A stretch of DNA of 64,000 nucleotides from Schmidtea polychroa (lineage: Eukaryota): positions 8,124,001-8,188,000 of the forward strand of contig CM097885.1 of assembly GCA_044892525.1 (NCBI GenBank). Direction: 5' to 3'. The notes under the pieces are model-generated. The model worked only from the letters and a program-made list of their open reading frames with translations. It was not told the DNA's origin and searched no databases. The position numbers and the translations under genes were made by a program. Numbering within the stretch: position 1 is the first letter of the stretch; the number at the start of each line of letters is the position of its first letter. Shown piece after piece: positions 52,346-55,700 of the stretch.

Positions 52346-52432
<87 letters not shown>

Positions 52433-52433
<1 letters not shown>

Positions 52434-52639
52434 GTATAAAATGATGATTTCTTGGTAGCAGCATTTATTATTTAAAACAATAAAATGATAATTTAAGCCT
52501 TTTGCTGCAAATAATGTATTTAATGAAAATATTTTCGACTATAAGATAGTCCTTGTCAATCTCTATCTTATAGTCGAAAATTTTTTCATTAAATACATTA
52601 TTTGCAGCAAAAGGCTTAAATTATCATTTTATTGTTTTA

Positions 52640-52647
<8 letters not shown>
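52433..52647. mobile_element. Palindromic mini Penelope-like insertion (inverted pLTR pair) inside an (AAT)n array, young copy
   Basis: 85-bp arms (52465-52549 / 52563-52647) with one mismatch, a 13-nt spacer, and a ~32 bp unpaired tail (52433-52464). AAT repeats lie on both sides (52347-52432, 52641-52742). Confidence 0.9.
52523..52563 (-). ncRNA. Minimal hammerhead ribozyme motif, U3-A8 variant (second intact copy)
   Basis: The minus strand reads GAGA-UUGACAA-G-GACUAU(CUU)AUAGUC-GAAA-AUAU-U-U/UCAU. It differs from the 13621 copy only in the stem II loop. Confidence 0.7.
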
Positions 52648-52704
<57 letters not shown>

Positions 52705-55700
52705 TAATAATAAAAATAATAATATAAAATAATAATAATAATGCAACATCTATTTTTCAAAAATGAAATCCATTTTTTAGATTATATTTTAATTAATTTT
52801 TTTGGTTTGTTTAAATAAAACGATAATGGAAAAGTGATTATCATAATATGGACACATTAGCTAATTAAATTTTCTATCTGCTATTAAAAAAAAATTATTT
52901 CAACCCCAAAAATATTTTTTGGGAAGTGAAATTTTATTGATTCGCTTCAGAATGTAAATCCGTGGAAATTTTAGTCAGTCTATTTAAACAACGAATATCA
53001 ATTTAATTTCCCATATTTTGAATTTTGCTTAATAATTGCAAATGTAAAATTTGCACTAGAAATCATTAAGTTGGAAATAAAAAAGAAAAAAATAGCTAAA
53101 CTTCTTAAACACGACGATTTAAGCAAAATATAAAATTAAAGAACTTCATCGTGCAAATTACCGCTTTTAAAGTCTACAACAAATCACAGACCAGTGAAAT
53201 CAATGATGCAGAAAGAATGAAAGTGCCCGCGTGCATTTGCATCGATTGACAGCGGGAACAATAGAATAATATCAAAAATTGTCTCTGAATTAAAAAAAAT
53301 AGGAATTTTTTTTTCAACGAGTCATTCCTTGCTTAAACCATTAAAAATAATCCGAGAAAAGTAGACAATTTGATATATTGAATCCCATTGGCTGGACACG
53401 ATGTTTGTTTGTTAGTGTGTTGAAAAATTAATTTACACACATGCACACATACACACAGACGTGAAATCGTGAACAAGTTGTCTCAATTTGAGCACAATTT
53501 ATTTTTGTTTGAGATTGTTGTCTCATTTCGGAGTAGAAATTCAATCGAATGTCAGATTATCCAGACATCGACTTACAGACAAAATTGCCAAGGATGTTTG
53601 TATTGTCTAGCAGATAGAATCATCCAATCAGACGAGGATTTAACATGTGTCGCCTTTAGCCTTACGTTCTATCCTACGAATTTCATATACTAATTAACTG
53701 ACAAGTATTATCGGAATTATCTGTTCCAATATTTTCAAATCATTCTTTACAATCACTCGGACAATTCGAATAATCATTTTCCTTATCGGTAAGATATTTA
53801 CTGGAACTATTGTCAATTTAAATATATTCTCCCTAAAAAAATATTAACCAAGGTTGGTAGGAATTAATTTTTGATTTAGGATTTTTAATTTTTACAATTA
53901 CTTTAATTTATGTGAATTAAAAACAAATTAAATTTCGTCATTAATAGTTTTTAAATTTATTTAAATTAAAAACTTTTAGAAATTTAAAAATATATTTATT
54001 TTTATATTATTATTTATGTTAAAAAAATTTCAATTCAGTATGTTTTTTTCTTAATTTAATTTTTTTCATCCAAAGATTTCCTGTTTGGAATTTTTTTCTT
54101 TCTTAATTTATATAGAATATTCAAATAGAAATTCATTTTCTGCTTATTTGTTTTATAATTTCTCTATTTTAATTTTAATGTTTAGAATTTGTTTTAATAA
54201 CTTACAATCTATTTGTGACATTTTGAAATGATTTTAAATTTATCAAATGATTTTTTTAATATTTTATTAAGAAATTAAAATGGTTTTGAAATTTTTTTAA
54301 TTTAAAAAATTAAAGTACAGACTATTAGTCATTTGAAAATCACTATTGACATTTCTAAAGTCAGTTTAATTCGAATGAATTCTTTGGAGAAGAAAAAAAT
54401 AATCGTAAATAGTCTGAGAAAAACAATCCGCAAATATTTAAACAGCATACTTATGTGTTCTAGCTGAAACTATAATAATCAAGCCTCTATAGTTGACAAA
54501 ATTTACGTACAATAATGAAAAAAAGTCTAAGTTGTCAGTCACTGGCTTATTTACGCAGGGCGGTCTTCATTTGACTGATATATTTTTACTCATTATCAAA
54601 AATTCGGTCTCTGTGTTGAACTTGATTGAATAATCGGACTGCTATAGAACGGAAGCCCTTAAATAAACACATGAATAATATAGGAACTGACTTCAAATTA
54701 CTGTCGGGGAGATTAGAAAGAATCAGACCGTAACTCGAGTACTTTATCCACTCTGTTTATATATGGTTAGAATTTTTCTAATAAAGATTGAGTTACTGAG
54801 AAATAATTATATTTCAAAGTAATTGTTTGTTTTAATTGTAAACCCAAATTTTGTCATTTTGTATGATATAGCGTCATTCAACCAAATATTGTGCAATGAT
54901 AATTTGAGGAAATACTTAAGGAATCTGGAAAAGAATAAAAAATAAAAGAATAATTTTTTTTAACCATTTCCATTTAAGTCCTCTTCAATATGCAAAGGAG
55001 AATTGTTTAAATGTGAATTTGAAAATTATGATTTTTTTTATTTGAATTATCTGCCTTTTGATTGAATCTTGACTTAATTTCTAAATTAAAGTTTTTCCTA
55101 TAATTTTTATAATTTTAAAAAACTCTAAATTAAAAATTTTTTTTTCTGAGGCAGATTCAAGAGGATTATTTCATAATTGAAAATTCACATTTTTGTTTTT
55201 AATAAAAATAATAATAATAAATAGCAATAAAAATTATATAATAATAATTAATAATAATAAAGTGTATTATAAATTAGTAATAATAATATTTGTTAGATGT
55301 TACTAGAACATCTCATTTTTTTTGAAAAACATTTTCTTTTATTGAACTCATAATCCAAATTGTATTAATAATCACAATATTATTTAATATTTAAACAAAC
55401 TTTTCGGCACTGAATCAAACAATCTCAAAACAATTAATTCGAATTAATTTTTTTATTTAAGTTTATATTTTACAAATAAAACCTTATTTTTAATTTTAAT
55501 TATTTTGGCCTTAAATTTATTTTAAATTTATAAAAATTTTATTTTTAATCTTAATTATTTACAACTTAAATTTAAATAATTCTAACAACTCAATTTAAAA
55601 TATTTATCCAAAGAATTTATTATTTTTAATTTTAATTATTTTTGACTTAAATTAATTTTAAGCTATTCCGAAAAATTATCCGAAATATTTAACTCACTGC

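What the first reader, a model, noticed from the sequence alone, without database searches (positions are those of the whole stretch)
52347..52742. Palindromic, ribozyme-bearing mini Penelope insertion inside an (AAT)n array
Seen: a 215 bp unit made of two inverted copies of the same pLTR end (85-bp arms, one mismatch, 13-nt spacer), plus a ~32 bp tail on one arm only, embedded in AAT repeats. The same sequence is the 3' end of the GIY-YIG-encoding remnants at 10.3 and 13.1 kb. Established: Penelope-like elements form inverted pLTR junctions, have a short tail extension and carry hammerheads. Inference: this family targets (AAT/ATT)n and often leaves minimal hairpin units that look like MITEs but are retro-derived. 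These could be mobilised in trans or produce hairpin RNA.
Basis: partly seen in the sequence, partly recalled or inferred. Interest (0 to 1): 0.75.

Follow-up and report, generated by a model that had tools for sequence, protein, structure and literature searches.

The report
Palindromic stump of a Penelope retroelement
A 217-base mirror-image insertion inside an AAT repeat is two head-to-head copies of the end of a Penelope-like jumping gene, a known and ordinary pattern that was likely built once at landing, and its hammerhead ribozyme motif is predicted to be non-functional.

Summary
Observation confirmed: 52431-52647 holds 85-bp arms (one mismatch, 13-nt spacer) and a one-sided 34-bp tail, between AAT arrays. 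The arm is the 3' end of GIY-YIG endonuclease remnants at 10.3 and 13.1 kb. The 13.1-kb copy is 5'-truncated, lacks the tail and has a 17-bp target duplication, which rules out a MITE. A second palindrome at 27.4 kb has another junction and other alleles, so each palindrome was likely built at its own insertion, not copied from a master. An inverted truncated copy, a one-sided tail, opposite-strand hammerheads and microsatellite bias are all published Penelope-like features. 'Ribozyme-bearing' is half right: a known U3-A8 minimal hammerhead motif is there, but only one arm has the core, it carries A at the U16.1 position, and the hairpin sequesters it. AAT bias is suggestive (3 of 6 loci; P = 0.04 without the discovery copy) and not strict. 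No whole genome was held, so genome-wide fractions, the RT partner and small RNAs are untested. The scan found the same fold-back ends before in shark- and fish-type genomes. Open lead: one priming site matches the AAT target, and the element may seed the arrays.

The parts
52347..52430 (+). Left (AAT)28 array
52431..52464 (-). One-sided 34-bp tail (3' extension of the pLTR); begins with an ATG whose frame is open for 10 codons in 6 of 6 tail copies (weak sign of the ORF start)
   Evidence: contigs run on from 13712 into this tail (table 7)
52465..52549 (-). Left arm: pLTR copy on the minus strand, continuing through the spacer to its 5' end at 52562
52550..52562 (-). 13-nt spacer: the extra 5' part of the left copy, holding the 5' edge of hammerhead stem I and the 5' half of the core; 1-nt microhomology at the junction
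52525..52562 (-). Minimal type I hammerhead-like motif: U3-A8 core, extra base before stem II, 6-bp stem II closed by G10.1-C11.1, GAAA; position 16.1 (52530) is A, not U
   Evidence: features from PMC4209133
52563..52647 (+). Right arm: inverted, tail-less pLTR copy that starts inside stem II (no 5' half of the core) and ends where the pLTR's own AATAATAA merges with the array
52640..52742 (+). Right AAT array with AAAAAT interruptions
27408..27642 (.). Second palindromic unit of the same family between AAT arrays, same polarity, other junction (with a short duplicated patch), arms 8 mismatches and 1 gap apart over 77 bp
13086..13711 (+). 5'-truncated, tail-less, non-inverted family copy: last ~40 codons of the endonuclease, AT-rich 3' region, pLTR with hammerhead-like core at 13625
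13069..13085 (+). First copy of an exact 17-bp target-site duplication (second copy 13712-13728); begins with ATT
   Evidence: 0 of 537 other control windows had a 17-bp repeat at this spacing
10349..11162 (+). [quoted passage not shown]
29922..29961 (+). Tail-only family fragment, no array next to it
38596..38990 (.). Three old family fragments, two on the minus strand and one on the plus strand, no array nearby

Best explanation
The unit is two head-to-head copies of the terminal repeat (pLTR) of an endonuclease-positive Penelope-like retroelement, likely made in one integration event in which both strands of a cut in the AAT array primed reverse transcription. Shown: the anatomy, the link to a C-terminal GIY-YIG domain, and two 3' end points of the family (the end of the tail, and a point about 34-42 nt upstream at AATAATAA). 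Inferred: the enzyme cut both strands at ATT sites; one strand primed at the tail end and the other at the upstream site; both cDNAs stopped after 85-130 nt at or inside the hammerhead motif, near the likely 5' end of the RNA; end-joining of the two cDNA ends gave the palindrome with a tail on one side. The product is likely a dead, one-off insertion. Identity as a Penelope-like end is about 0.95; the two-strand route, as against fold-back of one cDNA, about 0.6.
For: Link to the endonuclease: 97% identity of the arm to the 3' end of the 13.1-kb copy, whose 5' part is 68% identical over 31 aa to the GIY-YIG domain in P0001 (Pfam GIY-YIG 31.3 bits against a cut-off of 22.6); the 10.3-kb piece scores 18.7 bits on its own and 70% over 27 aa to P0001. 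Atlas look-alikes of that domain include eukaryotic clusters with RT and GIY-YIG (rows 4, 9, 10; a lead only). Target-primed signs: 5' truncation plus a 17-bp duplication starting with ATT. Two 3' ends: the 13.1-kb copy and both right arms stop at the same place, left arms and the 11.1-kb copy carry the tail; contigs leave the 13.1-kb copy at 13712 into the tail (124 in X1, 68 in X5) or at 13709 into mixed AT-rich sequence (77 and 59). Independent assembly: junctions differ between the 52.5- and 27.5-kb units, and both arms of the 27-kb unit share two alleles that neither arm of the 52-kb unit has. The 3 opposite-strand joints shown rest on one contig each in X1, at depth 364-390 against 339 for a unique flank contig. 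Shared 5' edge: this unit's left copy begins at the position matching 13622, and 4 joints involve 13622 or 13624. The single mismatch between the arms falls on a site that varies in the family (13654: T in 60-92% of depth in 4 of 4 runs), a weak sign of two templates. Literature: a Penelope-like protein cuts and extends both strands, prefers 5'-ATT-3' and starts at two internal sites that bound the tail (PMC11167929).
Against: No reverse transcriptase partner was recovered, so the clade and the RNA ends are unknown. Junction microhomology is 1 nt (52 kb) and 3 nt with a duplicated patch (27 kb); these fit fold-back equally well. The arm mismatch lies in an A/T run and could be a mutation hot spot or gene conversion. 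Only 15 of 42 joints were shown, their direction is not stated, and their second ends (13654-13660) may reflect a subfamily insertion near 13660 and not true copy ends. This unit's own junction was not among the joints shown. The 27-kb left copy starts about 7-9 nt upstream of the shared edge. After the tail, the 11.1-kb copy meets AAT on its own strand, the opposite polarity to the two palindromes. In the published in vitro work priming sites were not homologous to the target, whereas here one site matches the array over 8 nt.
Confidence: 0.6

Rival explanations
1. Same element, but one cDNA folded back (self-primed) at the hammerhead region and was copied into the inverted arm, which then ended by pairing its AATAATAA with the array.
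For: Self-priming was proposed for inverted Penelope junctions (PMC3846280, passages). Stem II is a ready hairpin (pair probabilities 0.74-0.99 in a single copy). The 27-kb junction has a 3-nt match suited to fold-back. Arms within a unit share subfamily alleles.
Against: The 52-kb junction has 1 nt of microhomology. The tail-less end also occurs in a non-inverted copy with a target duplication, so it is a priming site in its own right. The arm mismatch is a common family allele.
Confidence: 0.27
2. A non-autonomous palindromic element that is transcribed and moved as a unit by the Penelope-like protein.
For: Non-autonomous derivatives are known (PMC8557442; bioRxiv 10.64898/2026.07.22.740005), and pLTRs suffice in cis for movement in trans (PMC3846280). 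The family is abundant: 31,280 contigs of X1 were laid on 781 bases.
Against: Two of two units in the window have different junctions; the 3 inverted joints shown have about single-locus depth. An amplified junction could still be split into contigs too short to be listed.
Confidence: 0.07
3. An assembly or library artefact (inverted chimera).
Against: The arms differ by one base here and by 8 plus a gap at 27 kb; the tail is one-sided as published; one inverted joint (13622/13657) stands in runs of two studies.
Confidence: 0.04
4. A MITE of a cut-and-paste DNA transposon.
For: Short, non-coding, hairpin-shaped, in AT-rich DNA.
Against: The ends are not inverted repeats (one-sided tail); the arm is the 3' end of GIY-YIG remnants; the duplication at a family copy is 17 bp with 5' truncation; no shared fixed duplication outside the arrays (best matches 7-8 bp).
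Confidence: 0.02

Closest known systems
Insertion units of canonical endonuclease-positive Penelope-like elements (Craig et al. 2021, PMC8557442; Arkhipova et al. 2013, PMC3846280)
   Same: 5'-truncated copy with an adjacent inverted copy, head to head; inverted copy shorter at its 5' end; 30-40 bp tail at one end only; target duplication hidden in microsatellites; hammerhead motif in the pLTR; C-terminal GIY-YIG with cysteines between the two motifs.
   Different: Both copies are cut down to the pLTR alone (no ORF). The repeat is AAT; the passages read name (TA)n, (CA)n and (C)n, and AT-rich or AAY-rich targets in the rotifer. One priming site matches the repeat. Clade not assigned.
PAc (Poseidon of Anolis) two-site internal priming (Frangieh et al. 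2024, PMC11167929)
   Same: Two 3' end points that bound a tail; duplication starting at ATT; both strands extended would give this geometry.
   Different: Different family; there the priming sites are not homologous to the cut DNA; nothing was assayed here.
Minimal type I hammerheads of Penelope-like elements, U3-A8 variant (Cervera and De la Pena 2014, PMC4209133)
   Same: U3-A8 core, one base between positions 9 and 10.1, G10.1-C11.1, long stem II, 4-bp stem I, palindromic 15.2-16.2; pairs on opposite strands 100-700 bp apart were reported in Schistosoma.
   Different: Here the pair overlaps at the junction, one copy lacks half of the core, the other has A at 16.1, and the long hairpin outcompetes the fold.
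Non-LTR retrozymes and non-autonomous Chlamys elements such as MRC1
   Same: Small, non-coding, derived from or related to the pLTR.
   Different: Those are head-to-tail units with a family consensus; this is head-to-head with locus-specific junctions.

Membership tests
Canonical EN+ Penelope-like element | C-terminal GIY-YIG endonuclease with CCHH motif in linked copies | tested here: met
   Two cysteines between the motifs and two downstream histidines in the 10.3-kb pieces and in P0001; stop codon, then 3' region and pLTR
Canonical EN+ Penelope-like element | Telomerase-related reverse transcriptase in the same ORF | tested here: inconclusive
   Both remnants are truncated; no partner found; RT-bearing clusters are only structural look-alikes of the endonuclease
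Canonical EN+ Penelope-like element | Inverted 5'-truncated copy and one-sided 30-40 bp tail | tested here: met
   2 units in the window; one head-to-tail joint, 13710 to 13622, also listed (table 5c)
Canonical EN+ Penelope-like element | Variable target-site duplication with 5' truncation | tested here: met
   17 bp at the 13.1-kb copy; not visible at the 52-kb unit because of the array
Canonical EN+ Penelope-like element | Hammerhead motif in the pLTR | tested here: met
   Pattern hit at 13625 (+) and 52559 (-); none in 50 shuffles
Hydra clade | CCHH motif absent | tested here: not met
   Motif present; definition
Naiad/Chlamys | N-terminal endonuclease, no canonical hammerhead | tested here: not met
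   Endonuclease ends at a stop just before the 3' region
Neptune or Nematis | CX2-5CxxC zinc-finger linker before the endonuclease | tested here: inconclusive
   Cysteine-rich linker in the one decayed copy, but not the full pattern
Active minimal hammerhead ribozyme (this unit) | Complete core with A15.1-U16.1 pair | tested here: not met
   Left arm has A at 16.1 in the register with a 4-bp stem I; right arm lacks positions 3-9. A second register keeps U16.1 but leaves a 2-bp stem I.
Active minimal hammerhead ribozyme (this unit) | Stem II can form in the transcript | tested here: not met
   Pair probability about 4e-13 in the full unit against 0.74-0.97 in the left copy alone (equilibrium model, co-transcriptional folding not modelled)
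Active minimal hammerhead ribozyme (this unit) | Self-cleavage as a dimer | not testable with these tools
   Needs an assay
Active minimal hammerhead ribozyme (family) | Compensatory changes in stem II | tested here: inconclusive
   81% of 42 cells paired, one double change, 155 of 500 shuffles as high
MITE | Terminal inverted repeats with a short fixed target duplication | tested here: not met
Non-autonomous mobile unit | Many copies with the same ends and junction | tested here: inconclusive
   Not so in 2 of 2 window units and 3 joints shown; no whole genome held

The most novel reading that the evidence does not exclude
This family is tuned to the AAT/ATT duplex and helps to make it: its priming sites pair with the repeat strands, and its telomerase-related enzyme stutters on them and lays down AAT units. 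That would explain arrays on both sides of palindromes (two 3' ends) but only on the 3' side of the non-inverted 11.1-kb copy and of pLTR-like motifs at 15.7 and 28.9 kb, and would make the element a source of this genome's AAT arrays. Against it: 7 of 12 array loci have no recognised element, 3 of 6 family loci have no array, and the 11.1-kb copy has the opposite polarity.
Probability: 0.1. Interest if true: 0.7.

Novelty: new member of a known kind. Interest (0 to 1): 0.27.

Why it matters
As an object it is ordinary: such stumps explain why Penelope-like ends get annotated as MITEs or microRNA hairpins. As a data set the family could be useful. It is abundant, and each short palindrome records two priming sites and two stop sites, so a genome-wide catalogue could separate two-strand priming from fold-back, test whether cDNAs stop at the hammerhead edge, and test whether AAT arrays are targets or products. 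These are open points about how Penelope-like elements integrate.

Tried and rejected
Rfam: no hammerhead match in the window at gathering score or at E up to 10 over the unit, the 13.6-kb core or the 28.9-kb motif; since the canonical-core motif at 28.9 kb is missed too, this says nothing. The sub-threshold microRNA matches over the unit only reflect a long hairpin. Partner search: no homologue for the window pieces in the word-indexed search or the Atlas; the exhaustive search gave 3 hits, two of them gene-prediction chimeras with this endonuclease, the third a repeat-protein match that I set aside; the endonuclease of P0001 found only itself; JGI metagenomes gave nothing by DNA motif or protein. 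RNA: no RNA holder listed; run X13 is only guessed to be RNA; it holds the pLTR and one inverted joint, which I do not count as expression. Summed contig depth was not used as a copy number or to rank parts of the element. AAT-flank fractions cannot be read from contigs, because arrays collapse and unique flanks do not. Tail as ORF start: 4 silent and 12 replacement codon changes in the ATG frame, no better than the other frames, though free of stops. Stem II covariation not significant (one search was one column out of register and was repeated). The first direct-repeat scan was swamped by microsatellites. The 19.2-kb insert between AAT arrays belongs to another repeat. Papers on an AAT-specific Penelope family: none found; two candidates read by passage gave nothing beyond a general AT-rich preference. 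Arkhipova 2006 and Lunse 2017 were not read, and the supplements of PMC8557442 (family and hammerhead tables) were not opened; they may list such a family.

Full report
Observation. The structure is as described. Between AAT arrays at 52347-52430 and 52640-52742 lies a 217-bp unit with arms at 52465-52549 and 52563-52647 (85 bp, one mismatch at 52530/52582), a 13-nt spacer and a 34-bp tail on the left only. The last 8 bp of the right arm merge with the array. The window is 26% G+C. No whole genome is held, so all counts below come from this window or from contigs of public runs.

Family in the window. BLAST of the unit finds six loci: this one, a second palindrome at 27408-27642 (84%), the ends of two longer remnants at 13.6 kb (97%) and 11.1 kb (78%), a tail fragment at 29.9 kb and three old fragments at 38.6-39.0 kb. 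The 10.3-kb remnant holds a frameshifted GIY-YIG domain with two cysteines between the motifs, ending in a stop at 10710; its first piece scores 18.7 bits on Pfam GIY-YIG, below the cut-off of 22.6. An exhaustive search with the second piece gave 3 proteins. The best, P0001, is a chimeric gene model whose last hundred residues are an uninterrupted GIY-YIG match (31.3 bits), alike to the first 10.3-kb piece (70% over 27 aa), the second (56%) and the 13.1-kb piece (68% over 31 aa). Atlas look-alikes are eukaryotic GIY-YIG clusters, some with RT (a lead). A C-terminal endonuclease with the CCHH motif fits canonical Penelope-like elements and excludes the Hydra and Naiad/Chlamys clades as defined in PMC8557442 (passages and section 11 read). 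No RT partner was found, so the clade stays open.

Retrotransposition signs. The 13.1-kb copy (13086-13711) is flanked by an exact 17-bp direct repeat beginning with ATT; 0 of 537 other control windows show one. It is 5'-truncated, lacks the tail and ends where both inverted right arms end. The family therefore has two 3' end points, 34-42 nt apart. Contigs of four runs laid on 13000-13780 (31,280 laid from X1) leave the copy at 13712 into the tail and at 13709 into mixed AT-rich sequence, and run upstream into endonuclease sequence like that at 10.6 kb. This refutes the MITE reading.

How the palindrome arose. On the + strand the unit reads: array, tail and pLTR in antisense, junction, pLTR in sense, array. 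Each strand thus starts in the array and continues as an antisense copy from one of the two end points. A Penelope-like protein was shown in vitro to cut and extend both strands, to prefer 5'-ATT-3' and to start at two internal sites that bound the tail (PMC11167929, parts 1-2 of 4 read); the tail lies at the start of the ORF in Penelope (PMC2377424, abstract and section 16). I infer two short cDNAs primed on opposite strands and joined at their ends. The left copy begins at the position matching 13622, the 5' edge of hammerhead stem I; 4 joints involve 13622 or 13624 (three opposite-strand, one head-to-tail), though only 15 of 42 joints were shown, their direction is not stated, and the 27-kb left copy starts some 7-9 nt further upstream. 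The palindromes look like separate events: their junctions differ, the 27-kb arms share two alleles absent from the 52-kb arms, and the three inverted joints rest on single contigs at depth 364-390 against 339 for a unique flank in X1, and 36 against about 40 in X5. Fold-back of one cDNA, proposed in PMC3846280 (passages), is the main rival. The one arm mismatch falls on a site that varies in the family (13654), a weak point for two templates; an A/T-run hot spot or gene conversion would give the same.

The ribozyme claim. A pattern for minimal hammerheads hits three places in the window (13625 +, 28942 +, 52559 -) and none in 50 shuffles. The family motif has a U3-A8 core, an extra base before a 6-bp stem II, G10.1-C11.1 and a 4-bp stem I, all described for Penelope-like elements, as are pairs on opposite strands (PMC4209133, parts 1-2 of 4 read). 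In this unit the right arm starts inside stem II and lacks positions 3-9. The left arm has A at 16.1, where 60-92% of depth in four runs has T; a second register keeps U16.1 but leaves a 2-bp stem I. In the full transcript stem II has a pairing probability near 4e-13, against 0.74-0.97 in the left copy alone. Such motifs cut poorly and need a tandem partner (PMC4209133; PMC6765202, passages). The motif is a relic here, by prediction; no assay was run.

AAT preference. Three of six family loci have an end within 50 bp of an array of five or more units; such positions make up 6.8% of the window; P = 0.005, or 0.04 for 2 of 5 without the discovery copy. The background is not matched for AT content. 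Three loci have no array. Of 12 array loci, 3 hold this family, 2 follow other pLTR-like motifs (28942, canonical core; 15662, 5 of 300 shuffles as high) and 7 have nothing recognised. Both palindromes have the same polarity; the 11.1-kb copy has the other. So a bias is plausible and strict targeting is not. Microsatellite bias is published for several clades, and AT-rich or AAY-rich targets for rotifer elements. Searches found no paper on an AAT-specific family; Arkhipova 2006, Lunse 2017 and the supplements of PMC8557442 were not seen.

Comparison and verdict. The inverted truncated copy with a one-sided tail is the standard insertion pattern. Non-autonomous relatives (bioRxiv 10.64898/2026.07.22.740005, part 1 of 5 read) are head-to-tail units, which this is not. 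The scan's own notes describe the same fold-back ends, and starts at the hammerhead edge, in shark- and fish-type genomes (unchecked notes); no look-alike by sequence was on record. This is a new member of a known kind. Hairpin RNA is possible by read-through and untested. The boldest reading left open is that the element seeds the AAT arrays at its priming sites (about 0.1).

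Noticed in passing
window 28936-29043 (+): A second, unrelated minimal hammerhead with a canonical core and 4-nt palindromic loop III, about 60 bp before an AAT array that turns into an ATT array at 29184; likely the end of another Penelope-like family.
   Followed up: partly
window 15655-15760 (+): Distant pLTR-like stretch with a compensatory change in stem II, followed by an ATT array; alignment to the family is borderline (5 of 300 shuffles as high).
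   Followed up: partly
window 9495-9556 (-): Rfam mir-753 match above its gathering score lies inside a dispersed repeat with copies at 48.6 and 50.2 kb, so this microRNA family may derive from a repeat. That mir-753 was described in planarians is recalled, not checked.
   Followed up: no
window 2974-3393 and 3860-3920 (+): Reading frame for a small cysteine-rich protein with a signal-peptide-like start, broken by what looks like an intron filled by a 430-bp ATT array; no Pfam match above cut-off.
   Followed up: no
window 58947-61289 (-): Two in-frame open stretches (543 and 236 aa) separated by one stop, with a DUF4371 match: a nearly intact hAT-type transposase by recalled resemblance; more decayed ones at 5.3-6.3 and 36.6-38.2 kb.
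   Followed up: no
window 51492-52001: Old element with 136-bp inverted ends (71% alike) directly after the AAT array at 51423-51491; unrelated to the pLTR.
   Followed up: no
window 19238-19365: 128-bp insert between two AAT arrays; piece of another dispersed palindromic repeat (copies at 25.0, 34.0 and 44.1 kb).
   Followed up: partly
run X7 laid on window 13081-13728: A run with another organism label holds the element (387 of 1,171 laid contigs 99% or more alike) but not the flanks: the family is shared with a second species label.
   Followed up: no
proteins P0001 and P0002: Gene models that fuse a host transporter or hydrolase to this endonuclease; probably mis-predictions over intronic insertions.
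   Followed up: no
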